Source: an uncultured delta proteobacterium (lineage in GTDB: Bacteria > Desulfobacterota > Desulfomonilia > Desulfomonilales > Desulfomonilaceae). Taken from it: DNA of 64,000 bases. Shown one piece after another: positions 678 to 33,271 of the stretch. The notes beneath the pieces are model-generated. The model did no database searches. It saw nothing but the letters and a program-made list of their open reading frames with translations, and was not told where the DNA came from. The position numbers were made by a program, and so were the translations under genes. Each line of letters begins with the position of its first letter. The first letter of the stretch is position 1. The stretch is taken from the NCBI GenBank assembly GCA_963789265.1, contig CAWBKB010000001.1, positions 160,001-224,000 of the forward strand, in the 5' to 3' direction.

Positions 678-3600
678 TCAGTTCACTTCCCCCACCAAAA
701 TAAAAGGAGCCCAGTAAAACGGATGGTCGTAACCTGCCTTCCGGATCTCGTCTCGGGCAAGTCTCAGCGCTTCGAGTTTATTCTTCCCTTCCTTGAGATG
801 CTTGAAGAAGCTTTCCACGAGATTGACGGAAGCTGTTTCGGAAACGCTCCACAGGCTCATCAAGACACTTTTTGCGCCTGTGTACTGAAATGCCCGGCCC
901 ATTCCCATCGTGCCTTCACCTGAGATGCGTCGCCCGAGACCTGTCTGACATGCGGTCAGCGCGGCTATGTCCGCGTTGATCTTCAAGCCCATGACTTCAC
1001 TCAATCTCAGGAAACCATCCTGGCCCTTGGGCTCACCGACAAGGCTGAGTACCAGGACAGGCTCTTGTATTCCGGGTAAGTCTTTCCCAAAATATCCGTG
1101 GGTGGCAAATACGAGAGAGCGATACGAAGTGAGGTCTTTCCCGAGAAGGACCGACTTTTTGGCGGTCATGCCTTCATACAGGTCGGTCTTAGAAGGGTCC
1201 GATTTTTTCAAGGCCTTACCGAGTTCATCGGTGAGCGGAAGCCTGGGAAAAGTTAGGCCGCTCTCTGTTTCTATAGACATGGTCAAATCTTTCGGAAGCG
1301 TAGCCAAAAGCCTGTCCTTCTCCTGTTTGGCAAGTTTCACCAGACGCGGATCGTCACTTGAAAAGACAGGATCAACCATTGCTAATAGTTTCTGTCCGGG
1401 CTTCTGCTGCTTCCCGAGGGTTTCTTGCCAGAGTCAGGGCCGTAATTGACTGATAGTAAGAAATCGGATTGCGATCACCGAAGAATTCAGCACCGGAAGT
1501 TTGAGGTCTTTTATTGTCTTTTATGAACTTTCCGCCATCGTTGAAGACAAGCATCTCGAACGGCACGACTCCAAGGGAACCATCAGGGACAATGATAACC
1601 GGAGTATTCTTGGGCAGGTCAGGGAGGATGTCGGAAAGAAGAATGTCTGAAAGTTTCTTGCCGGATTTGAAGTCAAATTGACTGAGTTTCTTTGCGAGAG
1701 AATCATCAGGTCCCAGTTCCATAGGCTGGCGGAATTTTCTGACCAGTTCGTCAATCTCTTTTCTCGGAGTGGGTTTGAAAAGTCCTTTTACGAGATTCTT
1801 GCCTTTCGTGAGGTAAATTATGATTCCCGGATCGGTAACATGATAAGCCAACACCCATTCATTATCTTTCAGGGCGGATTGATCCAAACTCATCGGTTGA
1901 GGATACTTGGTTGCAGCGAAGAGCGGATACTGCTTGCGGAGCATATCCACATGAGCAGTCAGTTTCTGTTTGGCTTCCTTCACCTGAGGTTCAAGGACGG
2001 CTATCACTTCCTTGTTTTGCTTCTGATAAGCCTTCTGGAGATTTTTTGTCAGCGCGGCCAACTCATTCGTGAGTTGAGAGTCCTTGTCACGAATATCCTT
2101 TGGAACATCCGCACCAGCATACTCGCTCCTTTTGGATATGGATTCAGCAAAGATTCTGGCTCTGGTGTACTCGGACTCTTTGATTGCCTCCACGGGGCGG
2201 TTCATCTTTGCAAGTACGTGGGCAAGCCCCTCGTACGGCGCTGTCCGGTAAAATCCACCTATTCTCACATCAAAGAAAGTTTCGTGCTCCGTGGGGTTGA
2301 GGCTTGATCTGAGTTCCTCAGTGTATTCTATAGCCTTTCGGTAATATTCCATTGCATGGGGATTATCACCCATGCCTTCATAAGACATGCCTAGACCATT
2401 GTATGCGGTGAAAAGGTCGTCGGCATTTCTGTTTTGCTCGGCACTTTTCAGAAGGCTCTCATAGGAGTTCTTGGCTGACGGATAATCGGCTTTAACGAGG
2501 TATAGTCTACCAATAGAACTGGGGTAGTTTGCCTCTTTGATGAACGATTCGGCTCTTCCAATCTCACCCTTGTCGAGGTAGAGGTTCCCAATCGAATCTT
2601 TGGGCCATCCTGGGGAGACCCCGATCTTCTGGTAGATTTCCAGCGCCTTTTGAAAACCCGCCAAAGCCTTGTCGTACTCGCCTTGGCTGCGATAGACTTC
2701 TCCCAGATTGGTGAGAGTCACCCCTTCTCCCCTCACGTTCCCGATCTTCCTGCAAATTGCCAGGTCTTTCTCGTAAAACTCCACTGCCTTGGTATACTGA
2801 CCCAACTCCTTATATACGAGCCCCAGACCGCCCAGGCTATTCCCTTCACCATCCACATTTCCCATCTTTATCTTGATCTCCAGAGACTTCTCGTAATACT
2901 CTATTGCCTTCGTGTACTGGCCCCACCTCAGATACACATTCCCCAGGTTGTTCAGGGAGCCTCCTTCGCCCTTAAGGTCCCGGAGCTTCTGGGAGATGGC
3001 AAGGGACTTCTCGTGATACTCCGCCGCCTTCGCATACCGGCCCCAGTCCTCATTCACATTCCCCAGATTCATCAGGGCATCGGCTTCGGTACTCTGATCA
3101 CCGATCTTGCGTGCAATTTCCCGGGACTTCTCGTGATACTCCACCGCCTTCGCATACTGGCCCCAGTCATCGGTACACGACGCCCAGGGCGTTCAGGGAG
3201 ATTCCTTCGTCCTTGCGGTCCCCGAGTTTCCGGAAGATGGCAAGGGACTTCTCTTGATACTCCGCTGCCTTCGCATACTGGCCCAAGTCCCTATACACTA
3301 GCCCCAGGTTGCCCAGTGCATGCCCTTCTCCCCTCACGTTCCCGATCTTCCTGCAGATTGCCCGGGACTTCTCGTAGAATTCCATTGCCTTGGAATTCTG
3401 GCCCCAATTCCAATATACGAGGCCCAGGTTGTTCAGAGCATTCCCTTCACCCTTTACGTCTCCGATCTTTCTCTTGATCGGGAGAGACTTCTCGTAGAAT
3501 TTCACCGCCTTGGAATACCGACCCCAATAGTAATAAACGGTCCCAAGGTTGTTCAAAGCATTCCCTTTGGCCAGGACGTCCCCTGTCTTTCTCGATATCT

Positions 3601-4027
3601 CCAGAGACTTCTCTAAGCATTCCACTGCCTTAGGATACTCACCCAAAGCCTTATATACGATCCCCAGGTTGCCTAGCGTTTGTCCTTCACCCTTTACGTC
3701 TCCGATCTTTCTCTTGATCCCAAGAGACTTCGTGTAGAATTCCACTGCCTTGGTATACTGACCCCTAGCCGCGTAGATCAACCCTACACTGGTGCAAGCT
3801 AATCCGAGATTCTTTCGTTCCTTGACCCTCTGGTAGATGGCTATGGCCTGGAGGAATTTCTGCTCCGCCTTTTTCAGGTCTGCGTTGGATCGGGCTTTTT
3901 GTTGCAGAGCATACGCTTCCTTGTGGAGGCGTATCGCATCCTGCCTGGACTGGGCCATCAGCGGCGATGAAACAAGAATACAAAGTGCGGCTATTATTGC
4001 CGGGACAAGAAAGATTCGCTTGAACAT
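678..4027 (-). CDS. Exported TPR-CHAT protease 1 (signal peptide, about 10 40-aa TPR repeats, CHAT domain); two apparent +1 frameshifts near 3170 and 1420
   Basis: ORFs 3167-4027, 1372-3144 and 678-1379 join colinearly with intact paralog 10659-13286. FATHG and LTACQTG catalytic motifs, HPFYWAPFILVG terminus, AGGAG RBS. Confidence 0.9.
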
Positions 4028-4056
4028 GGCAGACTCCTAACGAATCAAAAGAAATT

Positions 4057-4092: not shown

Positions 4093-4245
4093 TTTTTTCA
4101 CCACAGAGACACTGAGGACACAGAGGCCCTACGCGGGCGGCGAATATTTTCTTCGAGTGACCTTCTCAATTTCTACGGGCCTCCATGCTAATTACAGTCA
4201 TGGCCGTGCGCCGAGCACCTCAGTGATCTCCGTGTCTCTGTGGTT
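4093..4245. repeat. About 150-bp palindromic-ended repeat, copy 1
   Basis: Similar over its length to 19613-19753; both copies follow ggagccc. Confidence 0.75.
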
Positions 4246-4260
4246 ATTTTCGTCTTTCTA

Positions 4261-4557
4261 TCACTTCACTTCCCTCACCAATATGAACTGGAGCCCAGTA
4301 AAACGGATGATCGTAGCCCGCCTTTCTTACTTCATCCCGGCCCAACTTTAATGCCTCCAGTTTGTTCTTCCCTTCCTTGAGATGCTTGAAGAAGCTTTCC
4401 ACAAGATTGACGGAAGCTGTTTCGGGAACGCTCCAAAGGCTCATCAATACACTTTTCGCGCCTGCGTACTGGAAGGCTCGGTCCATTCCCATAGTGCCTT
4501 AACCGGAGATGCGACGAAAACCAACAACAATGCTACCAAAACAGCTTGCTTGCTCAT
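4261..4557 (-). pseudogene. Deleted CHAT gene remnant (signal-peptide-like start joined to the last ~85 CHAT codons, with stop and frameshifts)
   Basis: RRISG*GTMGMDRAFQYAGAKSVLMSLWSV...YDHPFYWAP; catalytic His/Cys region absent. Confidence 0.8.
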
Positions 4558-4891: not shown

Positions 4892-6538
4892 CTATCGGCC
4901 CTTGTGCCAAAACCAGACGGAGTGAGCCACGTCCAATTTGGCTGATTCAATGGCGTTGGACCACTCTTCGAAAGACCGTGTCTTGCGGTCACCACTGGTA
5001 AGCTTGGCCTTTCTCACTATGGCCTTTGAAATTCCCATAATTTCGTCCAGAGTACTACGAGTTTCCTGGGTTACTTCTGCACCTGCGTTCTGATCCCCTC
5101 CATGTTGTTTGATGTCTTTGGCCTCTTTTTCCAGATCTTCGAGCACAGCATTCTTGCTTCGAGACGCCACCACGTAGATTTTTTCTTTGCCTTCAGTATT
5201 ATCAAGCCTGGCCCATGCATCTTTCGCAGGTATCCAGTAAATCTTGCCCCCTTTCAACGGATTCTCCAACCTGTTTTCAGGTGTGAGAAACTCCGTCCCG
5301 GGAAACAACCTAGCGATATTCCCATGTGTGTCGATCTGGTACACGTAAACATAGCTGGTGGTATGGGGCCGGAAACCTATCTGGAAGTTCTGTTGGGAAT
5401 ACAACACAGAACCGTTGGTTATGGTGACGTCGCCGCAGAGAGGATCATTGCATTCTGCTACGCCTTCCGGGGGATTCAAACAAACGGCGTTGGTACACCT
5501 GGGGTCTTGGGCGACAAACCAAACATCCAGTTTGAGAGTGTCGTCCAGGTGCTCAAGGACCGATACGGGAAACTTGCCGCTCACGGCCCCTTCTATCTGA
5601 GGATGCTGCGCGCCCTCGGTTTCGTCCTTTGTCCGCTCATAAACATAATCGTAGATGTTTTGCAGAGTAATGACGCCGGTTCTCTGGATATCCGCTTCGC
5701 CTTTCAATCCCTTCAAGAGATAATAGGTGAAAACGCTATTCGAGAGATTAGGTTTTTCCTGGGAGTATTCGTCTGGTTTACTGGAGCTGAGAATCACCCT
5801 TCCGGTAGCGTCTTTGAACATTTTCATAAATGTTTCCATAGGGTCTTCCAGGGATTTCGTCAGTATTCTGGAGGCGCCGCCTGCGTGGCACGCATCCACA
5901 ATGAGCACGAGCCGCTTGGAATCCACACGGTCGAAGAACTTCAGGCCCGCCATGCTCACCGCGGTAGCGGCCAGATACTTGGGATCGGAATCATAGGTCA
6001 GGAAATAGAACGAGCCCGGTTCTCCCGGATCGGATCCTCCGTGACCGCTGAAAAAAAGAATCACCGAATCGTCCTTCCCAGCCTTCCGCAGATCGCCGTA
6101 AAGATATTTCTCGACTGCTTGTTTGGTGGCTTCGCGGTCGGTTAATATCCTCACGTGAATATTTTTGAAGACTTCTCGCTGGGTTTCAATGAATTGTGCG
6201 AAATCCTTGGCATCTTTCGAGGAGAGGTGGAGTTTTCGTATCGAAGGATCGGAATAGTCGGAAACGCCTACAGCGAGAGCATAAAGATCGCCTTGTCCAA
6301 GGGCCTGTCGAGCCTTGAGCCGCTGTACCACGTGGGATCGCCTGATGGCTTTTGTTCCTGCGTCATCTCCAATGGCAATTCCTTGAAAAGACGTTGCCAG
6401 AAGGGCAACCAAGGCTACGCGAAGGCATGACTGCAGGAGCGGCGTCACCATTGCCCAAAAGTGTAACTGCAATTCGATTGCCTTACTTTGATTCATAATC
6501 CGCGCACCGGCGATCTTTATTCTCTCACTGCTTCTCAT
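4892..6538 (-). CDS. Exported caspase-family (peptidase C14) protein with C-terminal DUF4384-like domain
   Basis: ALAVGVSDY, FFSGHG, IVDACHAG, QHP motifs; YVYVYQIDTHGNIARLFP DUF4384 signature; hydrophobic N-terminus. Confidence 0.88.
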   Translation of the reverse strand: MRSSERIKIAGARIMNQSKAIELQLHFWAMVTPLLQSCLRVALVALLATSFQGIAIGDDAGTKAIRRSHVVQRLKARQALGQGDLYALAVGVSDYSDPSIRKLHLSSKDAKDFAQFIETQREVFKNIHVRILTDREATKQAVEKYLYGDLRKAGKDDSVILFFSGHGGSDPGEPGSFYFLTYDSDPKYLAATAVSMAGLKFFDRVDSKRLVLIVDACHAGGASRILTKSLEDPMETFMKMFKDATGRVILSSSKPDEYSQEKPNLSNSVFTYYLLKGLKGEADIQRTGVITLQNIYDYVYERTKDETEGAQHPQIEGAVSGKFPVSVLEHLDDTLKLDVWFVAQDPRCTNAVCLNPPEGVAECNDPLCGDVTITNGSVLYSQQNFQIGFRPHTTSYVYVYQIDTHGNIARLFPGTEFLTPENRLENPLKGGKIYWIPAKDAWARLDNTEGKEKIYVVASRSKNAVLEDLEKEAKDIKQHGGDQNAGAEVTQETRSTLDEIMGISKAIVRKAKLTSGDRKTRSFEEWSNAIESAKLDVAHSVWFWHKGR

Positions 6539-6634
6539 TTTTCTTCCATTCGTTCACGCATTTCAGCTCTTAACGATTCCCGGAGACTGCTGCATCTTGT
6601 TTTGCAATTGCGCGAGCCGTCGGTCTCCTTCATT

Positions 6635-7672
6635 TCAAGAAGATTCCGCTTCAAGCAACAACTCAGCGCCGATTCCGGTTATCCGCGATGGGATTGCGGA
6701 CAACGGCAGCCCCGTCTGAGAAATACTTCCTCGCTGCTCTTTCCCGGCCCGTTTGTAAAGCCTCCCCACTAGAGTGTAACCGCTCTTCGAAGGCAAGATC
6801 TCGAAGATGAGAACATAATTCGCGCCGGTCTTCCCTGCCGCAACTTCTGCTACCGCTGCGCTGTTTTGCGGTAGAGTTTGATCTTTCAGGGAAACCTTCA
6901 ACTTTCCGGGAGAAATGAAATTATAGAATCCTCCCAGCTTGGATGCCAGCGCAATGTCGGCATATATTTTGTCAATCTCTTCCGAGGATAATTTTATGTC
7001 TCGGGGAAGTAGAATAATTAATGCAACCTTCTGTTTAGCGACAAGAGAAGACTTGGGCGCAGTACCTTTGGAAGCCAAAGAAGCTACCTGCCAGGAGACG
7101 CTGCTGAACGCAGGGCTCAAAACAAGGCCTTCCGGTTTGTATGGGAGGACAAGCAAGAGAAGCAGGGCAGCCACGGCCGCGCCGAGGGCCAAAGAAGGGA
7201 AGTGGAAGAACTCAGTGAGTGCGCTCAAGAGATCCCGGATTGTCCGGAGATTCGGTCGACGGGCTTGACCGTACTCCTGCCGCACTGCTGCATGTATCAA
7301 TTCTCCGGTCCGGCGAGGGACAGGGGTTTTAGAAGAGTCAAGATTCTCCTTTTTTAGCTCTCTGATCAGAGAAACTTGTTCCGCGCAATCCGCACACAGC
7401 TCTATGTGATTCCCCACATTCCGCAGAACCTTTTCACCCGTCGCGAAATTGAAAAGCATTTCGGGATCCGGACAAGGTCTGACCGCCTCGGCCAATTGCT
7501 CTTTCTGTTCTTTAATGACGCTCTCCAGTTGTCTCAAATCCGCAAGTTCATGCCTGCAAGAAGAGCATTGCTTCGCGTGTTCCTCGATTTCGGAGGCTTC
7601 CTCGGGGAACTCCGCGGGCGATAGGGCCATCATGAGCCGTTCGGATATGTCGGGTCTTTGGCAAGGTGTCAT
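6635..7672 (-). CDS. Putative anti-sigma factor (two zf-HC2-like HxxxCxxC motifs, one TM helix, periplasmic domain)
   Basis: HAKQCSSC and HIELCADC motifs, TM LALGAAVAALLLLLVLP, directly downstream of the ECF sigma gene. Confidence 0.8.
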   Translation of the reverse strand: MTPCQRPDISERLMMALSPAEFPEEASEIEEHAKQCSSCRHELADLRQLESVIKEQKEQLAEAVRPCPDPEMLFNFATGEKVLRNVGNHIELCADCAEQVSLIRELKKENLDSSKTPVPRRTGELIHAAVRQEYGQARRPNLRTIRDLLSALTEFFHFPSLALGAAVAALLLLLVLPYKPEGLVLSPAFSSVSWQVASLASKGTAPKSSLVAKQKVALIILLPRDIKLSSEEIDKIYADIALASKLGGFYNFISPGKLKVSLKDQTLPQNSAAVAEVAAGKTGANYVLIFEILPSKSGYTLVGRLYKRAGKEQRGSISQTGLPLSAIPSRITGIGAELLLEAESS

Positions 7673-7673
7673 C

Positions 7674-8294
7674 TCAGGTCTCCTCTCTCAGGATCCCGAG
7701 AAGGCGGACAAGACATCTTTTCAGTTGAACCACAAGCGTGTTTGTCTTCACGCCCGTCCTATCGGCAATTTCTTGGAAAGAGATGTCGGAAAAATACCGC
7801 GCCTCGATCAGTTCTTTGCAACGTTTTTCCAGCTTGAACAAAGCCCTTTTCAATGAACCGAGCTCTTCCTGCTCCAGCAGCAGGTCTTCCTGGCTTTTGC
7901 CCGGATTAACACAAATGTGCGCCCCGTGGCCATCCGTTTGTGACTCGATCGGGTCCAAGGCAACCTGAGCTGAGAGTGTCTTCCGTTTGACTGCGGTCTT
8001 CTTCCGGAGCTGGGCAATGCACGTGTTGACCGCCACCTTGTATACGAAGGTGCCAAGATTGCTCTTGAATTTGAAGGTTCTCAAAGACCTGACGATCTCC
8101 GTCATGATCTCTTGGCACACATCTTCGACTTCTTGAGGGTCAAACCTCCATTTTTTCCACCCGGCCACGGACAATACCGTGCCATAATGGCCTTCAAGGA
8201 AATCATCCCAGGCCGTCCGGTCACCGGTGAGACATCCGGCTACGAGGGACCTCTCACGTTCAGCCGGACTGCCGGCCTCAGCCGAGTGCGCCAT
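7674..8294 (-). CDS. ECF-type RNA polymerase sigma-70 factor
   Basis: EVEDVCQEI region 2, TFVYKVAVNTCI, region 4 SFQEIADRTGVKTNTL; start set at the ATG after the upstream stop. Confidence 0.9.
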   Translation of the reverse strand: MAHSAEAGSPAERERSLVAGCLTGDRTAWDDFLEGHYGTVLSVAGWKKWRFDPQEVEDVCQEIMTEIVRSLRTFKFKSNLGTFVYKVAVNTCIAQLRKKTAVKRKTLSAQVALDPIESQTDGHGAHICVNPGKSQEDLLLEQEELGSLKRALFKLEKRCKELIEARYFSDISFQEIADRTGVKTNTLVVQLKRCLVRLLGILREET

Positions 8295-8301
8295 ATCGCG
8301 T

Positions 8302-9348
8302 CTATTTCGAAAGCTTAAATTCAACTCTTCTGTTCTCCGCCCATCCATCTTCGTTATTCTTTGGGGAATACGGTTTATCAGGCCCAAAGCCCTTGGTCGA
8401 TAGTCGGACCGGGTCTATTTTAAAGTTGGTCACCAGGTAGTTCTTTATTGCTTCGGCTCTTTGGGTGGATAGCAACATGTTCTTTCCGTACTGCCCTCTG
8501 TTGTCAGTGTGCCCCTCTATTGATACCGACAGCGTGGGCCGCTCGGCAAGCTCATTTTGCAGAGCTTTTCCGAATTCCCGAAGTTCTGGCAGCGATTCTT
8601 CTTTTATGGCGTACGACCATTCATCAAATAGAATTCTGTTGGTCTGAATGCTGTTTGGGGGTTGGATCTTTCGTATCCATTTCTTTTGTAGTCCCATTTG
8701 CCTTTCTTTACTCAACCGAGCAAAGACATTCTTGGATAAAGGCTTTGCCTCTTGATACGAGGCCGAGTGACGTTGAGCTTCTTGCAACGCCTGCCTCACA
8801 CCAGGGTCGTCCTTTGCGGCCAGTGCCTTCTTGTAGGCGTCCGCGGCCATGCCGAACTGCGCTTGATTGAAAAATAGATCACCCAGGAGCGAATAATAGT
8901 GGGCCCCTTTTTCAGGGCACAATCGCAGAATGGTTTGAACAAAAAGTATCTTGTCTTCCGCCAACATCTGCTTCTCCATGCCTTTTCTCAGCGATCCCAT
9001 GACCTTCTCGGAACAGTTAGTCCCTGGAGTAGTGAGGAGAAGTCCGTCGGTCAGTTTCTCCATCAAAAGACCGTACGCCGCCTTCTTGTCGGGTGGCGCC
9101 ATTCGGTGCTTTTGCTGTAGGACGGCCAGGCACCGCTCAGCTATGTTCCGATTCTGTCCCACAAGTTTGGACAGTGTTGTTTCGGAGGCATATTCATCTT
9201 TCAGCGTCTCGACAAGCTTTGCGTAAAACGAATTGATCGATTTAGCGGCATCCTGTGCCTTGAGATTCGGACAAGGGCTCAACAGAAGGAATGCCGAGAA
9301 AACAATGGCAAAGTGCTTAGCTTTCATGATACCGCACATGAGGCACAA
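8302..9348 (-). CDS. Exported TPR + OmpA-like peptidoglycan-binding protein
   Basis: IEGHTD, NMLLSTQRAEAIKNYL, ENRRVEF motifs; signal peptide. Confidence 0.88.
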   Translation of the reverse strand: MCLMCGIMKAKHFAIVFSAFLLLSPCPNLKAQDAAKSINSFYAKLVETLKDEYASETTLSKLVGQNRNIAERCLAVLQQKHRMAPPDKKAAYGLLMEKLTDGLLLTTPGTNCSEKVMGSLRKGMEKQMLAEDKILFVQTILRLCPEKGAHYYSLLGDLFFNQAQFGMAADAYKKALAAKDDPGVRQALQEAQRHSASYQEAKPLSKNVFARLSKERQMGLQKKWIRKIQPPNSIQTNRILFDEWSYAIKEESLPELREFGKALQNELAERPTLSVSIEGHTDNRGQYGKNMLLSTQRAEAIKNYLVTNFKIDPVRLSTKGFGPDKPYSPKNNEDGWAENRRVEFKLSK

Positions 9349-9363
9349 ATCTCCTCTGTTAGA

Positions 9364-10473
9364 TTAGCGCTCGCCTGCGCGCACGCTGAGAATCTCAACG
9401 CGTCTGTTGGCCCGTCTCCCTGCCGTAGTTCTGTTTGTGGTCCATGCGCGGGAATCACCGGCTCCTACCGTCGAGAGAAGGGAAGACGGCACTCCGCCTG
9501 TGGTGACCAGGTATTCCTTCACTGCCCGCGCACGTCTCAAGGAAAGAGACTGGTTATAATCCTTGGACCCCGTTGCGTCGGAATGGCCTTCAATGATGTA
9601 CCGCCCTGATCTAAGAGGATCACTTTTCAGGCTGACGGCGAGTTCGTCAAGCTGTCTTTTTGTCCTGGAGGAAAGAGCAGCCGATGAAATCGGGAACGTC
9701 ACTTCGTGCAGTCTCAGTCTCGACTGGAGCTTTGAGAATTGTGGACACATGCACATGAGATTCTCTTGTTCTGTCCCCAGTCGGTCCACAATTTCAGGAG
9801 AGAGCAAGAACTTTGGATTGTCTTGGGCAATCCGGCCTCCGGCCAGTTCGAGAAGTTTCTTTGCGTGTGTGCTTTGCGGATCTATCGCGAGGATCCTCTC
9901 GAAGTAGGGCAGACTTCGCCTATACAAACCGGCATTAAGGAAAGTTTCACCCAGCCCAAGAAGGGCTTCGGAGCCATTCCTTTCAATGTTGAGGGCTTTC
10001 TCATAATTCATCACCGCATCGTCGAATCTCCCCATTTTTCTGTTTATGTCTCCGAGATTGACGTAAGCGGCTCCGTGCGAAGGGCACAATTTGACTACCC
10101 GCGCAAATTTCTTGAGTTTTTCTTCCAGGACAAGGGCTTTCAGCCCTCTTTGATAAATCTTTTCAGCAAGGGAACAATTTTTTTTACCTTTTGCAAGACC
10201 TATTAGCTCTTCAAGCTCCTGAGCGACGATCGCGTACGTGTCAGTTTTCTGTCGGTCTTGCCCCCCCTGCATTTTCTTATGAATGACATCAAGGCATTTT
10301 ACAGCCAGATTGGGTTTTGCTCGAACCAGCGCCTCCAACTTGGAGGTTCGGTCATTCTTTAGCGCACTCAAGAAATCTTTGTAGAACTCGTTCACTCCGC
10401 CGGCATGAGCGTAGGTAGAACAGATCAATATATTAAGTACGATTATGATTGCCTGTTCGCTCTGCATCCTCAT
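9364..10473 (-). CDS. Exported TPR + OmpA-like peptidoglycan-binding protein (paralog)
   Basis: IEGHSD, NQSLSLRRARAVKEYL, ANRRVEI motifs; TPRs; signal peptide. Confidence 0.88.
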   Translation of the reverse strand: MRMQSEQAIIIVLNILICSTYAHAGGVNEFYKDFLSALKNDRTSKLEALVRAKPNLAVKCLDVIHKKMQGGQDRQKTDTYAIVAQELEELIGLAKGKKNCSLAEKIYQRGLKALVLEEKLKKFARVVKLCPSHGAAYVNLGDINRKMGRFDDAVMNYEKALNIERNGSEALLGLGETFLNAGLYRRSLPYFERILAIDPQSTHAKKLLELAGGRIAQDNPKFLLSPEIVDRLGTEQENLMCMCPQFSKLQSRLRLHEVTFPISSAALSSRTKRQLDELAVSLKSDPLRSGRYIIEGHSDATGSKDYNQSLSLRRARAVKEYLVTTGGVPSSLLSTVGAGDSRAWTTNRTTAGRRANRRVEILSVRAGER

Positions 10474-10658
10474 TTGGAACTTCCCTTCTCTTGAAGCCAA
10501 CGTACAGTATAGTCCCACTTACTATAGACATTAGTAGGAAATTGATCGCCATGTTGACAACAATCTGTACACCACAGAGGCACAGAGTTCACAGAGAAAA
10601 CCATTATTTTTCTTTCTCAGTGTCCTCTGTGTCTCTGTGGTTAATTCTTGTCTTCCTG

Positions 10659-13286
10659 TCAGTTCATTTCGCCCACCAGAATGAACGGTGCCCAATAAAA
10701 CGGATGGTCGTACCCGGCCTTCCGTATCTCGTCTCGGGCAAGTCTCAAAGCCTCCAGTTTGTTCTTCCCTTCCTTGAGATGCTTGAAGAAGCTTTCCACA
10801 AGATTGACCGAAGCTGTTTCGGAAACGCTCCAAAGGCTCATCAATACACTTTTCGCGCCTGCGTACTGAAACGCTCGGCCCATTCCCATCGTGCCTTCGC
10901 CGGAGATGCGTCTTCCCAGACCGGTTTGGCACGCGGTAAGCGCGGCTATATCGCAGTTGATCTTCAAACCCATGACTTCACTCAATCTCAGGAAACCATC
11001 CTGACCTTTCGGTTCACCGACAAGGCTAAGAACCAGCACCGGCTCTTGTATTCCGGGCAGATCTTTCCCGGTATACCCATGTGTGCCGAACACTAGAGAG
11101 CGGTACGGAGTGAGGTCTTTCCCGAGGAGGACGGACTTCTTGGAGGTCATGCCTTCATACAGGTCGGTCTTAGAAGAGTCGGTTTTCTTCAGGGACTCGC
11201 CAAGTTCAGCCGTAAGCGGAAGCCTGGGAAAAGTTAGGCCGCTCTCAGTTTCGATAGACATGGTGAGGTCTTTCGGGAGCGTAGCCAAAAGCCTGTCCTC
11301 CTCCTGTTTGGCAAGTTTCACCAGGCGTGGATCGTCGGAAGAGAAAACAGGGTCCACCATTGCAAGCAGTTTTTCGCCGAGTTTATGTTGTTTTCCAAGG
11401 GTACGTGCGAGAGTCAGGGCCGTGATCGACTGGTAATAAGAAATGGGATTGCGATCTCCGAAGAATTCGTCACCGGAGGTTTGAGGTCTATTGCCGTTCG
11501 TTACCATCTTTCCCCCCTCATTGAGGACGAGCATCTCGAACGGTACCACGCCGAGGGAACCGTCGGGGACGATGATTACAGGAGTATTCTTGGGCAGGTC
11601 AGAGAGTATGTCGCTGAGGAGAAGGTCAGAGAGTTCCTTTCCGGATTTAAAATCAAAGGACTCGAGCTTCTTTGGGAGAGAATCGTCAGGCCCAAGTTCC
11701 ATGGGCTGACGGAATTGCATGACCAGTTCATCCACTTCTTTTCTTGGAGTCGGCTTAAACAGCCCCTTTACGAGATTCTTGCCTTTCGTGAGGTAAATTA
11801 TGATGCCTGGATCGGTAACATGATAAGCCAGCACCCATTCGTTATCTTTCAGGGCGGATTGATCCAAACCCATCGGTTGAGGATATTGGGTCGCGGCAAA
11901 GAGCGGATACTGTTTGCGGAGCATGTCAATGTGCGCGGCAAGGTTTTCTTTTGCCGTTTTCACCTGGGGCTCAAGCGCGGCTATGACCTCTTTGTTCTGC
12001 TTCTCGTATGCTTTCTGGAGATTCTTGCTTAGTCCTGCGAGCTGCTCATTGAGATGAGAATCTTTTTCCAGCACGTCCTGTGGAATGTGCGGAGCTGACC
12101 CTTCTGCCCGCTTTGAGATGCGTTCGGCAAACATACGGGCTCTCGTGTATTCGGATTCCTTTAAGGCTTCCAGAGGCTTGTTGAGTTTCACCAGTACTCG
12201 GGCAAGTCCCTCGTACGGAGCAGTCCTGTAAAAGCCGCCGACCCTGACATTGTAGAACTCCGCTTTCTCGGCAGGGTTCAGGCCGGCTCTTAAATCTTCG
12301 GTACGATCAATGGCTTTGCGAAAACAGTCCGCGGCCGCGGGGTTATCTCCCATCTTCTCGTATGTCATTCCCAGGCCGGTATAGGAAATGAAGAGATCAA
12401 TTGAATTCTGGTTCTTCTCAGCACTTTGACGAAGTTTTTCGTAACACGCTCTTGCCTTCCCATACTCTGATTTGAGCAGGCTGAGCCTTCCCAGGGAAGC
12501 ACTGTAATTGCCTTCCCTTACGAAGGGCTCAGCTTTCTGAACGTCTCCCATGTCTAGGTAGAGATTACCGATACAATCCTTGGGCCAATTCGCCGGAACT
12601 CCGATCTTGAGGTAGATTGCCAGCGCCTTTTGAAAATTTGTCAGTGCTTTGTCGGACAGGCCCGAGTGCTGACATACCAGCGCCAGGTTGCCCAGGATTT
12701 GCCCTTCGGTCTTCACATCCCCGATCTTCCTCGTGATCTCTAGCGACTTATTGTAGAATTCCACTGCCTTGGCATACTGACCCCAGTTCAAATATATGAT
12801 CCCCAGGTTGCTCAGGGTGGCCCCTTCACCTTTGACGTCTCCGATCTTTCTCTTAATAGCAAGAGACTTTTCGAAGAATTCCACTGCCTTGGCATACTGA
12901 CCCCAATCGTAATATACGGTCCCCAGGTTGCCCAGGGTTTGCCCTTCGCCTTGTACGTCCCCGATCTTTCTCGTGATAGCCAGAGCCTTCTCGTCGAATT
13001 CCACTGCCTTGGAATACTGACCCCATTGCTGGTAGATGATCCCCACATTGCCGTAGGCCAATCCGAGATTCTTTCGCTCCCCGACCCTTTGATAAATTGC
13101 AATGGCCTGGAGGAATTTCTGTTCTGCCTGTTTCAGGTCTGCGTTGGATCGGCCTTTCTGTTGCAAGGCATACGCTTCCTTGTGGAGGCGTATCGCGTCC
13201 TGCCTGGATTGAGCCAACAATGGCGATGAAACAAGAATACAAAGTGCGGCTATTATTGCCGGGACAATCACGATTCGTTTGAACAT
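10659..13286 (-). CDS. Exported TPR-CHAT protease 2 (intact, about 4 long TPR repeats)
   Basis: Signal peptide MFKRIVIVPAII, FGTHG and LTACQTG dyad, HPFYWAPFILVG. Confidence 0.93.
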   Translation of the reverse strand: MFKRIVIVPAIIAALCILVSSPLLAQSRQDAIRLHKEAYALQQKGRSNADLKQAEQKFLQAIAIYQRVGERKNLGLAYGNVGIIYQQWGQYSKAVEFDEKALAITRKIGDVQGEGQTLGNLGTVYYDWGQYAKAVEFFEKSLAIKRKIGDVKGEGATLSNLGIIYLNWGQYAKAVEFYNKSLEITRKIGDVKTEGQILGNLALVCQHSGLSDKALTNFQKALAIYLKIGVPANWPKDCIGNLYLDMGDVQKAEPFVREGNYSASLGRLSLLKSEYGKARACYEKLRQSAEKNQNSIDLFISYTGLGMTYEKMGDNPAAADCFRKAIDRTEDLRAGLNPAEKAEFYNVRVGGFYRTAPYEGLARVLVKLNKPLEALKESEYTRARMFAERISKRAEGSAPHIPQDVLEKDSHLNEQLAGLSKNLQKAYEKQNKEVIAALEPQVKTAKENLAAHIDMLRKQYPLFAATQYPQPMGLDQSALKDNEWVLAYHVTDPGIIIYLTKGKNLVKGLFKPTPRKEVDELVMQFRQPMELGPDDSLPKKLESFDFKSGKELSDLLLSDILSDLPKNTPVIIVPDGSLGVVPFEMLVLNEGGKMVTNGNRPQTSGDEFFGDRNPISYYQSITALTLARTLGKQHKLGEKLLAMVDPVFSSDDPRLVKLAKQEEDRLLATLPKDLTMSIETESGLTFPRLPLTAELGESLKKTDSSKTDLYEGMTSKKSVLLGKDLTPYRSLVFGTHGYTGKDLPGIQEPVLVLSLVGEPKGQDGFLRLSEVMGLKINCDIAALTACQTGLGRRISGEGTMGMGRAFQYAGAKSVLMSLWSVSETASVNLVESFFKHLKEGKNKLEALRLARDEIRKAGYDHPFYWAPFILVGEMN

Positions 13287-14076
13287 GGCAGCCTCATGAA
13301 ACATCCTTGAGTGGTTTCCCTCATGAACCAGCGTGAACCTTACCTTCGGATCATATGAGTCGGTGTCCAAAATTACTTAGTCGCATTTGCGAACGAAACG
13401 TGACACCGGATAATGGCGGATAGAATCCCCTATAGACAAACAGCGACTATTCGAGCCACCCTCATCAACTGAGCCAGCGCCATGTCCGATCATGAAGACC
13501 CCCTCCAACATCGGAATCGGATTGATTGCAGTCCTTAAAATGCGGAATGTTCCAAGTATGCGCTTAGTCAGACTTAATTGTAAAGAATTATTGCTGGATA
13601 CTGGCGGACCGTCGCGTAAGATGGCGAAGTACATGTATTTGTCTCCCTCGGCATATCTGTGTCACCTGCCTTGTCCGTTTGCGACTAACGAAAACAATGG
13701 CGAGACTTCGACGAACGGGGAGTCGGCAAATGAACAAGCTGGTTGCCGTGATGAGATTTGCGGCAAGGATTTTAGCCGCGATCCTGATCTCGCCCGCTGA
13801 CAGGGCGTTCGTGGATCGGGCCGGCTTTGGGCGCGCCTACAGGATACGTACAACACACGGTAGCCTGTACTTCTCTTGGAGAGAGGTTCTTTGACAAGTA
13901 TCCGTTTGGCTGGCCTCAGGGTTTGTCAAGCGCATAATTCCGTTCGAGGATTACGTCCCTGGAGCCGTTCACTAGTTCGGTAGCATTTCGGTTGAGCAAT
14001 GGGCAATGATCGACTTTGCCAGACGCTTCGACCCGAAGCCTTTTCGCACGGACCCTTTTTGCCGGACCGTTTACAA

Positions 14077-14885: not shown

Positions 14886-16448
14886 TCATTTGTTGTGTTC
14901 TTTGACAAGCATACGCTTGGCGTCAGCATCTCCGTGGTCAGCAGCTCTGTGGAACCACTCGAAAGCCTTTGCCCGGTCCCTTGCAACACCTTGACCATAA
15001 TAATACAAGTAGCCGAGGTTGCATTCTGCTCCAGCACAACCCTGTTCAGCCGCCTTAAGATACAAACGATTTGCCGCGCTATAGTCTTTCGAGACCCCTT
15101 TTCCTAAATGATATCTCCTGGCTAAGGCAAATTGAGCATCAGGATCTCCCCGGTCGGCAGCAGTCTTGATCCAAATCATGGCCTTGCTATCATCATATAG
15201 CCTATCCATTTCCTTTCTTGCCCCTTCATTACTTTGTTCGATTAATCTGACCAGCCTCGTCACGGTTGACGAATAGTTCAGCGGTTGTTGCAGTTTACTT
15301 TCCGCTTTCGGCGGTTTTATCAGTATGGTTGTGGAGGGAGGAGTCTCTCGTTCCCTCTCGCGTTGCCTCTGCCTCTCCAACTCTTGCTGAAATTCCCGCT
15401 TTTCTCTCTCAAATCTTTGTTTCTCAAGTGCCGCCACCTTCTCGGCTTCCCGCAGTCTGGCGATCTCCTGCTCATGCGCTCGGTTAGCCTTCTCAAGTCG
15501 GTCCTTTTCCAGTGTTGCCAACCTCTCAGCTTCTCGAAGTTTTGCAAACTCTCGGTCGTCTTCCTTCTTCCTCGCGGCAGATTGCTTCCCGGTTGACGAT
15601 GGCAATGTTGATGGGTGGAAACAAAAGTCATCAGGCAAGCAACTGGAGACCCAGGGGTTTTGTTTTCCCTCTGTTTCTTGCCTGACCGCCCGCAGCACCT
15701 GCCTAAAGACATCGTCAATCTTTATGCCCTCCATTCTGAGGGCTTCTATGAGATGCTTCGTCTAGGGGCTATTCCGTCCTGTTCCGTCTGCGGCCACCGC
15801 ACCGGGTGCCGTCGCATAAGCAATAAACGTTCCTACAGGGGCATCTATGGGGCTTAGACCTTTGCTGGCTGATCGAAAACCCCTGAATGGGTTATTCCTA
15901 CAGGCATCCAAAATAACAATGTTGATCTTATTTCTGGATTCCTCTAATTTTTGAAGAATACGCCCCACAGGGACAGCGTCATAGTGAACATCGCTCTCGG
16001 ATTCAATTGAAACTCCAACAGGAAGCAAATAATTTTCTCCCTTAACTTGCGCCCCATGCCCCGAAAAGTAAAACAACGCAACGTCACCATTCTGAATCTT
16101 TTGAATAAACTCCCCCACAGCCTCGTCCATTTGACGGCGGTTGACATCTATTTTGGTCTGTACGGCGAATCCCAATCCCTTCAAAACATTTGAAATATCC
16201 TGGGCATCATTGACGGGATTTCGTAGAGGAGCATCCTTGTAGGCTTTGTTTCCGATGACGAGCGCGACCTTCTTGGCAGCAGAACCAGCAGCAATCGTCG
16301 GAGAAGCTCGACGCACAGCCTTGGAAGTTTCCTCATCGGCTGCAAATGAGAGTGAGCCGAGCAAACAGATGAGAATCAATGCTATAAATGCGAATTTCCA
16401 GTGGGTCCATTGAGAGGCTGAATCGTTCTGAATGGATTGAGGTTTCAT
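14886..16448 (-). pseudogene. Exported caspase-family protein with coiled coil and SEL1 repeats, interrupted by in-frame TAG at 15762-15764
   Basis: YFSGHG and LDACRNNP dyad; reads GRNSP*TKHLIEAL where the paralog at 28421 has GRNSPYAEHL. Confidence 0.85.
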
Positions 16449-16620
16449 CGTTTCCCCCTCTTCAACCACGGCGTCGTTATGTAAGAAGCGTGAGAGCCAA
16501 CGTCCGCTCAATGTTTCAGTATATTGAACGCCAATATCCTGGTCAATAACTATTTTGGATTCGCTTTCAGGCACCCACCCATTTGCTTGAAAGTTCGGTT
16601 GATTTTCCAGATGCGAGGTA

Positions 16621-31275: not shown

Positions 31276-33271
31276 GTGGCAGATCACTTTGGAGCGTTCC
31301 TCAAAAAGAATAAAACATACGCGGCTTGCGTTTGTTTTTCCGTTGTCTGGGGCTTGTTAGCTACTCTCCTTATCTTTCTGTTTCCATCTCCCTTCGAGAA
31401 TTTGAATTTTAAGATATATGACTGGCAGCTCGCGATCGATCCCGTTCGGAGTTATTCGTCGGCCATTGTTCACGTAGACATTGATGATCGGGCTGTCAAA
31501 GAATACGGCCAGTGGCCCTGGGACAGGTCACTCAGCGCTAAGATAGTTGAAAAACTTTCTGAATTCGGGGCTGGGGCAATAGCATTCGACATCTTTTACT
31601 CCGCCGCGGGAAAGAGCAAAGAAGGCAATGATGCCTTCTTTGGAGCGATCAAACGAGCGGGGAATGTTGTCTCAGCCACTGGCCTTGGTCGGCTGACCGA
31701 CATCTCCGATAAGTCCATAGAGTTGCCCCGGGATCGTTCCAAGGCGGATGCACTTTACGATAAGGGGTGGTCTTTGGCGGTTCCCGGGACCTTTCACTTG
31801 TTACGGGTTTACAAGCTGCAAGATTCTGCACTACCGCTATTGCCAATAATTCAAACGTCGAGCGGAGTCGGCCACATTGCGGCTAATCCGGACAGGGATG
31901 GCGTTTATCGAAGGGTAGCGCTTCTCGTGAGAGTGGAAGACCGCTGCATCCCCAGCTTGAGTCTTTCGACATTGATGACCTATTGGAAGCTTACCGCCGA
32001 TCACATCGTTCTCGATGATAAGAGTGCAATCGAAATCAAACGAGGCTCTCGCGTAGCGAGGATTCCTGTCGATGCCTCGAGGAATGTTGTTAGTTCATTG
32101 GGGAAAACCGTGGACTAGTTTCAAGCATTACTCGGCATATGATGTCCTGAGCGACGCGCCCGATCCACAGCGAGCGGGCCGTTATAAGGACAAAATTGTG
32201 ATCGTCGGGATCACTGCTACGGGGAATGCCGATTTTGGCACCACTCCCTTAGCTCTCAATGTTCCTCTGAGCAGAATTCATTCCCACGCATTGAACACCA
32301 TTTTGACAGGCAACTTCATTTCACACGTTTCTCCCTTTCCCTGGATCATTGTCTTTTCGATTCTTTTGGCAATCTTGTTTCCCGTGATGACTTCTCGGCT
32401 GAGCTTGACGATTGAGGCCCTGTCCGCAGGGCTGATTTGTCTGGGTGCTTTTGTGGGCGCGACCGCATGTTTTCTGCTTTGGTCCTGTGACATACCCCTG
32501 ATTGAAGCTTTTTTTGTTTTCCTCCCCGCTGCGTGCGCGTCCGTGTTGATTAGGGGAACCTCGATCGAGTGGGAAGCGGCACAAACCAAAAGGGCCCTGG
32601 AACGTTATCTGCTGCCTGAGCTTCTCGAAAGATCCTTCAGCGAGGGGATGGACCCGGACCTTTCTACAAGAAGGCGAGAAACTGACGGTGGTTTTCGTGG
32701 ACATACAGCGCTTTTCCACGCTGTCCGAGTCTGTCGAAGTAGAGTACGTCAGCCGTTTCTTGAAAGATTTCTTTCAAGGAATGACACAAGCAGTCCTAAA
32801 ACATCAGGGAAGGATCCACCAATTTATCGGAGACGGCTTCTTCGCGGTCTTCGGGGACCTCATACCACTCGAAAACCACACGGAGGCAGCATTCACGGCT
32901 GCTCTGGACATGCAAAGGGAGATGGCCGGACTGAATGCTCAATGGGCAACTTCCGGGATAGCAGAATTTGCCGCGGGACTTAGGATAAGAATCGGAATTA
33001 ATACGGGAATGGTCTTTTTGGGCGACTTGGGGTCTGACCGAAGACTCGAATACACGCTTGTGGGTTCCGCCGTGAACATAGCCAGCCGACTCCAAGCTTT
33101 GGCCCCTCCCGGCGGAATCATGTTGACTTCAGAACCAGAGCCTTGTTGAAAAAACCCAATTTGTGCCAAGGGCCTCAGTATGTAAAACTAAAAGGCTTCG
33201 AACGAGACACCGAGGTGTATCGATTTTCCCTGATGCGATACAATGTTCGGAATGATCGGTTGTATCGTTGA
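31276..33271 (+). CDS. CHASE2-domain class III (adenylate/guanylate-type) cyclase, frameshifts near 32085, 32680 and 33135; end approximate
   Basis: VDIDD...GQWPWDR, FDIF, DRDGVYRR, 3 TM helices; FVDIQRFS, FIGDG, RIGINTG, VNIASRL. Confidence 0.85.

What the first reader, a model, noticed from the sequence alone, without database searches (positions are those of the whole stretch)
4892..10473. Partner proteins carry the same Met-small motif at linker positions
Seen: both TPR-OmpA proteins have the motif just before the OmpA domain (ERQMGLQKK, ENLMCMCPQ). The caspase-DUF4384 tail has DEIMGISKAIV. The coiled-coil proteins have KMLMGAG and ALMGTG. Recalled: OmpA and DUF4384 partners in CHAT/caspase loci typically have TRG(I/L) at these spots. 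Inference: these are the cognate substrates of a re-coded protease network.
Basis: partly seen in the sequence, partly recalled or inferred. Interest (0 to 1): 0.78.

Follow-up and report, generated by a model that had tools for sequence, protein, structure and literature searches.

The report
Shared Met linker motif, TPR-CHAT module
Three envelope proteins encoded beside a secreted TPR-CHAT protease carry the same conserved methionine-centred motif in their flexible linkers, at the spot where relatives have arginine or lysine, which makes them likely cleavage substrates that can be tested directly.

Summary
All five strings exist. Only three lie in the stated range: OmpA1 M218, OmpA2 M254/M256 and the caspase-DUF4384 tail M501. 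A Met-small dipeptide alone is chance level: 3043 of 3721 long ORFs of this genome have one. These three are nevertheless conserved. Met is present in 32 of 33 OmpA1 orthologs and 34 of 35 caspase-DUF4384 orthologs, and LMCMCP is present in 9 of 9 OmpA2 orthologs. The sites sit in low-confidence AlphaFold linkers. The motif co-varies between partner proteins of one locus, for example the same 7- or 8-residue string in both, encoded with synonymous differences. In 113 representative DUF4384 tails the same column reads R 62, K 13 and M 31, mostly followed by Gly, so MG does occupy the RG column. Met-type loci have a TPR-CHAT gene nearby in 10 of 13 cases; basic-type loci do in 0 of 3. Published TPR-CHAT proteases (Craspase) cut after M, L or A. 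Best reading: these are TPR-CHAT processing sites with Met at P1. Cleavage is inferred, not shown. The C14 caspase keeps its acidic S1 residues, so it is not "re-coded". The two coiled-coil examples are not supported.

The parts
4892..6538 (-). Caspase (Peptidase_C14) - Cys-rich insert - DUF4384 - C-terminal tail protein, 548 aa. It has an N-terminal hydrophobic helix (signal anchor).
   Evidence: Pfam C14 86-319 and DUF4384 384-461. AlphaFold mean pLDDT 80.7. Foldseek best matches are MALT1, GSU0716 and metacaspases.
5015..5047 (-). Tail motif DEIMGISKAIV. The M501 codon is at 5036-5038. K510 (+9) is also conserved.
   Evidence: Column M in 32 of 35 aligned; +1 A18/G10; +2 P27; +9 K28/R4. The pLDDT block 501-510 averages 57, between helix 483-501 and a confident C-terminus.
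6635..7672 (-). Anti-sigma-like membrane protein, 345 aa: N-terminal H-x3-C-x2-C motif, one TM segment, periplasmic domain. It has no Met motif.
   Evidence: No Pfam hit. Three-ortholog alignment with invariant H32, C36 and C39.
7674..8387 (-). ECF-type sigma-70 factor.
   Evidence: Sigma70_r2, r4_2 and ECF hits. Orthologs sit in L009 and L012 next to OmpA1.
8302..9348 (-). OmpA1: signal peptide, all-helical domain, flexible linker, OmpA-like peptidoglycan-binding domain. 348 aa.
   Evidence: Pfam OmpA 240-340. AlphaFold pLDDT 89.1, helices up to 214, OmpA domain from 233.
8680..8706 (-). Linker motif ERQMGLQKK. The M218 codon is at 8695-8697. K227 (+9) is conserved.
   Evidence: Column M in 30 of 32; +1 G13/A12/S3; +9 K in 27 of 33. 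Residues 217-220 are the only interior segment with pLDDT below 50.
9364..10518 (-). OmpA2: signal peptide, TPR domain, linker, OmpA-like domain. 384 aa.
   Evidence: Pfam TPR families and OmpA 274-372.
9739..9765 (-). Linker motif ENLMCMCPQ (M254, C255, M256, C257).
   Evidence: LMCMCP is in 7 of 7 sequences of A3, in L012 (GLMCMCPM) and in L094 (QLMCMCPG).
10659..13370 (-). TPR-CHAT cysteine protease. The probable start is the Met at 13286, which gives a signal-peptide-like N-terminus. This is the candidate enzyme.
   Evidence: Pfam TPR_12 and CHAT 576-901. His and Cys of the THG and ACQTG motifs are invariant in 9 orthologs and paralogs. A CHAT gene lies beside Met-type partners in 10 of 13 loci.

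Best explanation
The region is a conserved envelope module of Desulfomonilaceae-like bacteria. It encodes:
- a secreted TPR-CHAT cysteine protease;
- two peptidoglycan-binding OmpA-like proteins with helical or TPR heads;
- a C14 caspase fused to DUF4384 and a C-terminal tail;
- in some loci, an ECF sigma/anti-sigma pair.

Each of the three non-CHAT proteins carries a Met-centred short linear motif in a flexible linker. OmpA1 and the caspase tail have M-[GAS]-[PVILF]-x(5-6)-[RK]-K. OmpA2 has L-M-C-M-C-P. This is the Met variant of a family-wide [R/K/M]-G-hydrophobic linker motif.

Most likely the motif is a processing site read by one locus-encoded enzyme, the TPR-CHAT protease, cutting after Met (P1) before a small residue (P1'). 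Cutting would separate the helical head of the OmpA proteins from their wall anchor. It would also nick the caspase-DUF4384 tail. The effect would be to switch the state of the C14 protease and perhaps the neighbouring sigma/anti-sigma pair.

Shown: conservation, the flexible-linker position, column equivalence with R/K-G, co-variation between partners, and linkage to CHAT. Inferred: that the motif is cut, that CHAT does it, and what follows.
For: 1. Conservation inside variable linkers: OmpA1 M in 30 of 32 aligned, caspase tail M in 32 of 35 aligned, with low column entropy only at 0, +1, +2, +8 and +9. LMCMCP is in 9 of 9 OmpA2 orthologs. LMGF is in 7 of 8 representatives of a second TPR-OmpA family; the eighth has LLGL.
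2. AlphaFold puts the sites in the least confident inter-domain segments: OmpA1 217-220 below 50, caspase block 501-510 at 57.
3. Partners in one locus share the motif.
   - L114 has NLMGFAD in both proteins.
   - L163 has MGIEDYTV in both.
   - L094 has MGAEDYTV and MGPEGYTV.
   - L166 has KTMGV at both linkers of one OmpA-DUF4384 protein.
   - The within-locus identity sum is 28. It is reached by 6 of 5040 permutations, and by 6 of 144 when permuting within subfamily.
   - The shared L163 octapeptide differs at 6 synonymous sites in 8 codons, so this is not gene conversion.
4. The same column is R 62, K 13 and M 28 (+3 shifted) of 113 representative tails, with Gly next in most. Small P1' residues are typical of clan CD proteases (my knowledge).
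5. A CHAT gene was found by HMM in 10 of 13 Met-type loci of at least 7 kb, and in 0 of 3 basic-type loci.
6. Precedent: the Desulfonema Csx29 TPR-CHAT cuts Csx30 after M427, M427A reduces cutting, Csx30 binds an ECF sigma, and some Csx30 C-terminal domains are DUF4384 (passages). Other Craspases cut L|D and A|S (passages).
7. The C14 domain keeps Asp109 and Asp215, which align with DSCHSG of metacaspase-4 and GSU0716. It therefore looks Arg/Lys-specific and is a poor candidate for a Met site.
Against: - No cleavage data exist and no enzyme-substrate model could be made.
- Three Met-type loci (L009, L088, L160) show no CHAT within 12-16 kb.
- The basic-type comparison rests on only three loci. 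The loci are related, so the counts overstate independence.
- A conserved basic residue at +8/+9 could be the true scissile site, for the C14 caspase.
- R, K and M all have long unbranched side chains, so a purely structural role for the column is possible.
- The C-x-C in the OmpA2 motif suggests redox or metal chemistry rather than, or besides, cleavage.
- Craspase work suggests that TPR-CHAT recognition depends more on structural positioning than on sequence.
- The profile-profile match between the two motif regions is weak (probability 1.9%, E 0.026).
Confidence: 0.5

Rival explanations
1. The motif is a docking or structural element that is not cut. Examples would be a peptide bound by the TPR domain of the CHAT protein or of the OmpA proteins, or the cap of the short strand that follows it. 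In that case R, K and M serve as interchangeable long side chains.
For: - A short strand (505-507) follows M501 in the model.
- The general pattern [RKM]-G-hydrophobic-x-x-[IV] looks strand-like.
- TPR domains bind linear peptides (my knowledge).
- Co-variation between partners fits any shared binder, not only a protease.
Against: - The column is almost only R, K or M. No Q or E was seen, and at most 2 L.
- The states are split by clade: 4 changes on the tree, matched by 0 of 500 shuffles.
- This fits a specificity determinant better than a packing role.
- The sites lie in the least confident, exposed segments.
- Gly, Ala or Ser at +1 fits a P1' position.
Confidence: 0.25
2. The site is cut by the C14 caspase, in cis or in trans, or by both proteases. 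The scissile bond would follow the conserved basic residue about 9 residues after the Met. The Met would then be an upstream recognition residue.
For: - Position +9 is K in 27 of 33 OmpA1 sequences and K or R in 32 of 35 caspase tails.
- K is also present at +9 or +10 in the L114, L094 and L163 motifs.
- The C14 domain has a metacaspase-like acidic pocket.
- In basic-type relatives without CHAT, the caspase is the only protease in the locus.
Against: - The +9 basic residue is not general across the 113 tails, whereas the [RKM]-G column is.
- The residue that switches between lineages is the Met/Arg column, not +9.
Confidence: 0.15
3. The conserved Met is an internal translation start that yields a separate C-terminal product. 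The small residue after it would serve methionine aminopeptidase.
For: Met followed by G, A, S or P is the pattern for N-terminal Met removal (my knowledge). The one replacement seen in a related OmpA family is Leu.
Against: - There is no Shine-Dalgarno enrichment: 3 of 15 motif ATGs have an SD-like word, against 16 of 101 other internal ATGs in the same genes.
- Homologs have Arg or Lys at the column.
- Products without the signal peptide would stay in the cytoplasm, away from peptidoglycan.
Confidence: 0.03
4. The resemblance is chance. Met-small dipeptides are common and mean nothing here.
For: 82% of long ORFs have such a dipeptide. The two coiled-coil cases behave like chance.
Against: Conservation in three protein families, column equivalence with R/K-G, and co-variation with synonymous differences.
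Confidence: 0.02

Closest known systems
Type III-E CRISPR Craspase arm: Csx29 (TPR-CHAT) - Csx30 - Csx31 - RpoE
   Same: - A TPR-CHAT protease with a His/Cys dyad.
- A cognate neighbour-encoded substrate cut once, in a linker or loop, after an uncharged residue: M|K in Desulfonema, L|D in Scalindua, A|S in Jettenia.
- An ECF sigma factor in the locus.
- Some Csx30 C-terminal domains are DUF4384.
(passages read.)
   Different: - No CRISPR-like array in the window and no Cas7-11 among the ORFs annotated.
- All partners have signal-peptide-like N-termini, so the system is extracytoplasmic (read from the sequences, no predictor run).
- There are several substrates rather than one.
- The substrates are OmpA-like and caspase proteins, not Csx30.
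- The CHAT domain has no sequence-level match to any solved chain.
Bacterial orthocaspases, metacaspases and paracaspase (Peptidase_C14, clan CD)
   Same: The 548-aa protein has SGHG and DACHAGG motifs. Its fold matches MALT1 caspase-Ig3, GSU0716 and metacaspases. The profile hits GSU0716 and metacaspase-4. Relatives carry R/K-G sites that fit Arg/Lys specificity.
   Different: In this lineage the linker sites are Met, which an acidic S1 pocket should not favour. The protein also has a Cys-rich insert, DUF4384 and a conserved tail. The DUF4384 searches of the library returned papers that mention DUF4384 only as a domain of caspase-like proteins.
Regulated proteolysis of ECF anti-sigma factors (RseA/DegS/RseP type)
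   Same: An ECF sigma and a single-pass anti-sigma with an H-x3-C-x2-C motif sit among periplasmic proteases and wall-binding proteins.
   Different: The anti-sigma periplasmic domain carries no Met motif in 3 of 3 orthologs. The sigma/anti-sigma pair is present in only 3 of the loci seen (window, L009, L012). No DegS- or RseP-type gene was looked for.
Separase (CHAT-related clan CD protease)
   Same: CHAT-type fold. The Csx29 paper compares it to separase.
   Different: Separase cuts after Arg (my knowledge). This shows that CHAT-type enzymes can have either preference. No Arg-type CHAT locus was found here to compare.

Membership tests
TPR-CHAT protease (Pfam CHAT PF12770 with TPR repeats) | TPR repeats followed by a CHAT domain | tested here: met
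   TPR_12 E 8e-53 and CHAT E 3e-46, residues 576-901
TPR-CHAT protease (Pfam CHAT PF12770 with TPR repeats) | Catalytic His and Cys present | tested here: met
   H736 (THG) and C786 (ACQTG) are invariant in 9 aligned CHAT proteins. Their identity as the catalytic dyad is by analogy with Csx29 H615/C658.
Type III-E Craspase system | Association with Cas7-11/gRAMP and a CRISPR array | tested here: not met
   No CRISPR-like repeat array in the 64 kb; all repeat families are coding TPR, Sel1 or other repeats. None of the 34 ORFs scanned is Cas-like. The whole genome was not searched for Cas7-11.
Type III-E Craspase system | Cognate substrate cut after an uncharged P1 residue | not testable with these tools
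   Only the conserved Met motif is seen.
Peptidase_C14 (metacaspase/orthocaspase-like) | p20-type domain with a His-Cys dyad | tested here: met
   Pfam C14 E 7e-17. H166 and C217 are invariant in 35 sequences.
Peptidase_C14 (metacaspase/orthocaspase-like) | Acidic S1 residues for Arg/Lys | tested here: met
   D109 and D215 are invariant. D215 aligns with the Asp of DSCHSG in metacaspase-4 and GSU0716. Their role in the S1 pocket is recalled, not computed.
OmpA-like peptidoglycan-binding domain (PF00691) | OmpA C-terminal-like domain | tested here: met
   E 2e-17 for OmpA1 and 1e-20 for OmpA2. GHTD and NRRVE motifs are conserved.
DUF4384 (PF14326) with conserved tail | DUF4384 beta domain followed by the [R/K/M]-G motif and a C-terminal helix-strand element | tested here: met
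   DUF4384 E 4e-11. 876 library proteins match the domain plus tail at E <= 1e-3. 113 of the 151 scanned align over the whole tail.
ECF sigma / zinc anti-sigma pair | Sigma regions 2 and 4; anti-sigma with H-x3-C-x2-C and one TM segment | tested here: met
   Sigma70_r2 and r4_2. H32, C36 and C39 are invariant in 3 orthologs. There is no Pfam hit for the anti-sigma itself.

The most novel reading that the evidence does not exclude
A whole multi-substrate proteolytic network switched its P1 residue in concert. In most DUF4384/OmpA/caspase modules the inter-domain linkers carry R/K-G sites for the Arg/Lys-specific C14 caspase. In one lineage every linker in every partner protein changed to M-G, and a secreted TPR-CHAT protease was recruited as the new processing enzyme. 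This envelope module (TPR-CHAT + DUF4384 protein + ECF sigma) would then be the free-living relative from which type III-E CRISPR systems took their Csx29-Csx30-RpoE signalling arm.
Probability: 0.3. Interest if true: 0.82.

Novelty: new variant of a known kind. Interest (0 to 1): 0.64.

Why it matters
TPR-CHAT and caspase-like proteases are abundant in bacteria with complex lifestyles. Outside type III-E CRISPR systems, almost none has a known substrate.

Here the sequences point to three candidate substrates, the exact residue, and the controls (Met to Ala, Met to Arg). A standard in vitro assay could settle the question.

The finding also gives DUF4384, a domain of unknown function, a concrete feature: a conserved tail with an [R/K/M]-G site whose identity tracks lineage.

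It offers a natural pair of specificities, basic against Met, in homologous scaffolds. That would be useful for understanding, and perhaps engineering, clan CD protease specificity.

The parallel with Csx29-Csx30-RpoE suggests where the CRISPR-linked protease arm came from.

Tried and rejected
- Coiled-coil proteins as further substrates: rejected. The Met motifs of the two paralogs are not at homologous positions. Only these two copies exist in the genome.
- Anti-sigma juxtamembrane segment as a fourth site: rejected. No Met in 3 of 3 orthologs.
- Internal translation start: no SD enrichment.
- Gene conversion as the cause of shared motifs: rejected for L163 and L114, which have synonymous differences. 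Not excluded for the 5-residue repeat in L166.
- Sequence search of the CHAT domain and of the caspase domain against solved structures: no hits. The full-length TPR-CHAT query hit TPR proteins only.
- The search for related loci with the 33-sequence alignment failed because the alignment was too diverse. It was repeated with 13 sequences.
- The metagenome scan gave only 4 full-length loci of 39.
- More basic-type contexts:
  - The R-type tail P0368 against plasmids gave no match.
  - A sample of 201 genomes of another phylum gave 17 DUF4384 loci. Nearly all lack the tail module, so they are uninformative.
  - Cluster look-up of 10 R-type proteins gave no organism names or context.
- Earlier findings of this scan: nothing on record.
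- Literature (library searches, not exhaustive): 'DUF4384' is in 7 papers, none of them on a linker motif. 'DUF4384' plus 'caspase' is in 4 papers. 'CHAT domain' plus 'OmpA' plus 'caspase' is in 0 papers.


Full report
**What is there**

The stated range lies in a run of minus-strand genes:
- a caspase (Peptidase_C14, residues 86-319) fused to DUF4384 (384-461) and an 87-residue tail: 4892..6538;
- an anti-sigma-like membrane protein: 6635..7672;
- an ECF sigma factor: 7674..8387;
- OmpA1, an OmpA-like protein with a helical head: 8302..9348;
- OmpA2, a TPR-OmpA protein: 9364..10518;
- a TPR-CHAT protease: 10659..13370.

All of them begin with signal-peptide-like or signal-anchor-like hydrophobic N-termini. 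I read this from the sequences; no predictor was run. The module is therefore probably extracytoplasmic.

The window is part of a larger island.
- All 8 DUF4384 matches of the 6.06-Mb genome lie in contig 1 between 146.9 and 195.7 kb.
- At least 10 CHAT-like ORFs were found genome-wide, 6 of them in the 142-186 kb stretch of contig 1; a further CHAT domain at window 48259..49173 was found by Pfam only.
- Several TPR-CHAT genes in the window are split into two or three ORFs.

**The observation**

All five strings exist. The two coiled-coil examples lie at 24 kb and 49 kb, outside the stated range.

A Met followed by G, A, S or C is not remarkable in itself. 3043 of 3721 ORFs of at least 200 aa in this genome have one, at 0.58 per 100 residues. 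What matters is position and conservation.

**Conservation**

OmpA1:
- From the 120 listed homologs (257 hits) I aligned the window protein with the 32 full-length family members. I left out two fragments and the unrelated OmpA families.
- The Met column holds M in 30 of 32 aligned residues.
- The two apparent Val rows have the Met two residues upstream.
- By direct reading, 32 of 33 sequences have the linker Met: 30 M-[GAS], 2 M-L, 1 without.

Caspase-DUF4384:
- I aligned 34 of the 39 listed proteins that carry both domains, plus the window protein.
- M stands at the column in 32 of 35. Two more are shifted by one residue. The most distant member (P0174) has Arg-Gly there.

In both families the flanking columns are variable. 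Positions 0, +1 (G/A), +2 (P/V), +8 (R) and +9 (K) are conserved.

OmpA2 and a second TPR-OmpA family:
- OmpA2 has LMCMCP in 7 of 7 sequences of alignment A3, and in the orthologs of loci L012 and L094.
- A second TPR-OmpA family has LMGF in 7 of 8 representatives. The eighth has LLGL.

**Structure**

- The AlphaFold model of OmpA1 (pLDDT 89.1, pTM 0.84) is confident everywhere inside the mature protein except residues 217-220, the QMGL. This segment lies between the last helix (to 214) and the OmpA domain (from 233).
- The model of caspase-DUF4384 (pLDDT 80.7) has its lowest C-terminal block at 501-510 (mean 57). That block lies between a helix (483-501) and a confident C-terminal helix-strand element.
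- Both Met sites therefore sit in exposed, flexible segments.

**Shared and co-varying motif**

The motif is shared by proteins that are otherwise unrelated in that region, and it changes together with its partner.

| Locus | Caspase tail | OmpA linker |
|---|---|---|
| L114 | NLMGFAD | NLMGFAD |
| L163 | MGIEDYTV | MGIEDYTV |
| L094 | MGAEDYTV | MGPEGYTV |
| window | MGISKAIVRK | MGLQKKWIRK |

In L166 a single OmpA-DUF4384 protein has KTMGV at both of its linkers.

Over seven loci the within-locus identity of positions +1 to +9 sums to 28. That value is reached by 6 of 5040 permutations of partners, and by 6 of 144 when partners are permuted only within the two subfamilies. The sample is small and the loci are related.

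The identical octapeptide of L163 is encoded with six synonymous differences in eight codons. The pentapeptide of L114 has three in five. The identity is therefore kept at the protein level and is not copied DNA.

A profile-profile comparison of the two families gives a single hit that puts Met on Met: OmpA1 216-259 against caspase 499-538. It is weak (E 0.026, probability 1.9%).

**The R-G column**

- A search with the DUF4384-plus-tail part against 1.84 billion representatives found 876 proteins at E <= 1e-3.
- Of the 151 sequences scanned (150 listed plus the window), 113 align over the whole tail.
- Their motif column reads R 62, M 28 (plus 3 shifted by one or two residues), K 13, H 3, other 7. 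Gly follows in most.
- That alignment was fitted to my own profile, but the pattern is plain in the raw sequences.
- Relatives with the recalled TRG motif exist. P0249 and P0250 (TPR-OmpA-DUF4384) and P0293 (OmpA-caspase-DUF4384) carry TRG, TRS or KDL at each inter-domain linker.
- The Met-type counterpart L166 has KTMGV at the matching positions.

On a FastTree of the 113 tails with the motif columns masked, Met against basic needs at least 4 changes. None of 500 shuffles reaches as few. All 31 Met rows lie in one half of the tree (45 rows). The other half has 64 basic rows and none with Met. The root is midpoint only, and a single origin is not excluded.

Both flavours occur fused to C14 caspases. 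They also occur fused to CsgG/FlgO-like domains (both flavours) and to TIR and PEGA domains (basic type only).

**Which enzyme**

With a CHAT-domain profile built from nine sequences, a CHAT gene is found in 10 of 13 Met-type loci of at least 7 kb.
- CHAT present: window, L011, L012, L090, L094, L114, L159, L163, L166, L170.
- CHAT not found: L009, L088, L160.

It is found in 0 of 3 basic-type loci: L169, the Azospirillum plasmid locus L171 and the Rhizobium pRL11 locus L172. These hold caspases, OmpA and DUF4384 genes. The numbers are small and not independent.

The C14 domain of the window protein keeps Asp109 and Asp215 in all 35 sequences. Asp215 aligns with the Asp of DSCHSG in Arabidopsis metacaspase-4 and in GSU0716. 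The fold matches MALT1, GSU0716 and metacaspases. These enzymes cut after Arg or Lys; that statement, and the role of the two Asp residues in the S1 pocket, is from my knowledge. The caspase does not look re-coded.

By contrast, the only TPR-CHAT proteases with mapped sites cut after uncharged residues.
- Desulfonema Csx29 cuts Csx30 at AVGM|KKDK, and M427A strongly reduces cutting.
- Csx30 binds the ECF sigma RpoE, and some Csx30 C-terminal domains are DUF4384 (bioRxiv 10.1101/2022.08.17.504292, passages read).
- Scalindua cuts L|D and Jettenia cuts A|S. The authors stress structural positioning over sequence (PMC11106740, passages read).

**Mechanism proposed**

Shown:
- a conserved Met-centred motif in flexible linkers of three partner proteins;
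- its equivalence to R/K-G sites in relatives;
- co-variation within loci;
- linkage to TPR-CHAT.

Inferred:
- The secreted TPR-CHAT cuts after the Met.
- This frees the helical or TPR heads from their peptidoglycan anchors and nicks the tail of caspase-DUF4384.
- This may activate or release the C14 protease and feed into the ECF sigma/anti-sigma pair. That pair is present in the window, L009 and L012 only.

I put about 0.5 on this. The main rivals are a non-cleaved docking motif (0.25) and cleavage at the conserved basic residue nine positions downstream by the C14 enzyme (0.15). The C-x-C in the OmpA2 motif remains unexplained.

**Rejected ideas**

- The two TM-coiled-coil-TM proteins are paralogs placed just downstream of TPR-CHAT genes, but their Met motifs do not align.
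- The anti-sigma factor has no such site.
- An internal start codon is not supported.
- There is no CRISPR-like array in the window.

**Novelty**

Library searches found no paper on a linker motif of DUF4384 or OmpA partners of CHAT or caspase proteases. The library is incomplete, and supplements were not consulted.

The system works like the Craspase protease arm, but it is not a member of it. It has no Cas7-11 or CRISPR array, it is extracytoplasmic, and it has several substrates of other families. I rate it a new variant of a known kind.

Noticed in passing
window 678-4492 (-): A paralog of the TPR-CHAT gene is broken into three ORFs (678..1379 CHAT, 1372..3144 TPR+CHAT start, 3167..4027 TPR with signal peptide). 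An 82-aa CHAT fragment lies at 4244..4492. This is either a pseudogene or frameshift errors of the assembly.
   Followed up: partly
window 20885-23729, 24705-28153, 45092-49173: Three more TPR-CHAT genes appear as two or three overlapping ORFs each (TPR part and CHAT part in different frames). So many split copies in a 9-contig assembly suggest sequencing frameshifts, or real decay of paralogs.
   Followed up: no
window 23970-24650 (-) and 49194-49793 (+): Two paralogous small proteins (30% identity) have an N-terminal TM segment, a coiled coil and a C-terminal TM segment. Each lies directly downstream of a TPR-CHAT gene. There is no Pfam family, and these are the only two copies in the genome.
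   Followed up: partly
L135 10027-16368 (contig 1, 150.0-156.4 kb, just upstream of the window): A second module: two TPR-OmpA proteins, a caspase-DUF4384, a double-DUF4384 protein and a DUF4384-caspase. Its linkers carry K-D-[ILV] (for example KDIVIQ, KDIGVE, KDLVVE, SKDVIVE) instead of M-G. A third flavour of the linker motif therefore exists in the same genome. L088 has the same module next to a Met-type caspase-DUF4384.
   Followed up: partly
window 14886-16574 (-): A 270-aa caspase ORF (15762..16574) is followed by a Sel1-repeat ORF (14886..15734). Together they look like one caspase-Sel1 gene split in two. Single proteins with that architecture are among the homologs.
   Followed up: no
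window 28394-32983 (+): A caspase-Sel1 protein, a 244-aa DUF4384 protein without the tail motif, and a CHASE2 domain split over two ORFs (31276..32118, 32072..32983).
   Followed up: no
L135 6674-9925 (-): A 1083-aa BNR/sortilin-like beta-propeller protein ends in a DUF4384 domain.
   Followed up: no
L171 (Azospirillum sp. TSA2s plasmid p2, 172461-193906): A cluster of three caspase genes, three OmpA genes, two DUF4384 genes and a PEGA gene sits between type IV secretion genes and a tubulin-like gene. It has T-R-[GS] and K-D-L linker motifs and no CHAT gene.
   Followed up: partly
library proteins P0424, P0369, P0425, P0367; locus L161: The DUF4384-plus-tail module is also fused to TIR, CsgG/FlgO/LpoB-like, PEGA and trypsin-like domains. 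It is therefore a general adaptor for envelope or conflict-type proteins.
   Followed up: no
window 53313-55391 (-) and around: Several families of 33-, 69- and 120-nt tandem direct repeats lie inside a 692-aa ORF and its neighbours. The region has strong AT skew and was not annotated.
   Followed up: no
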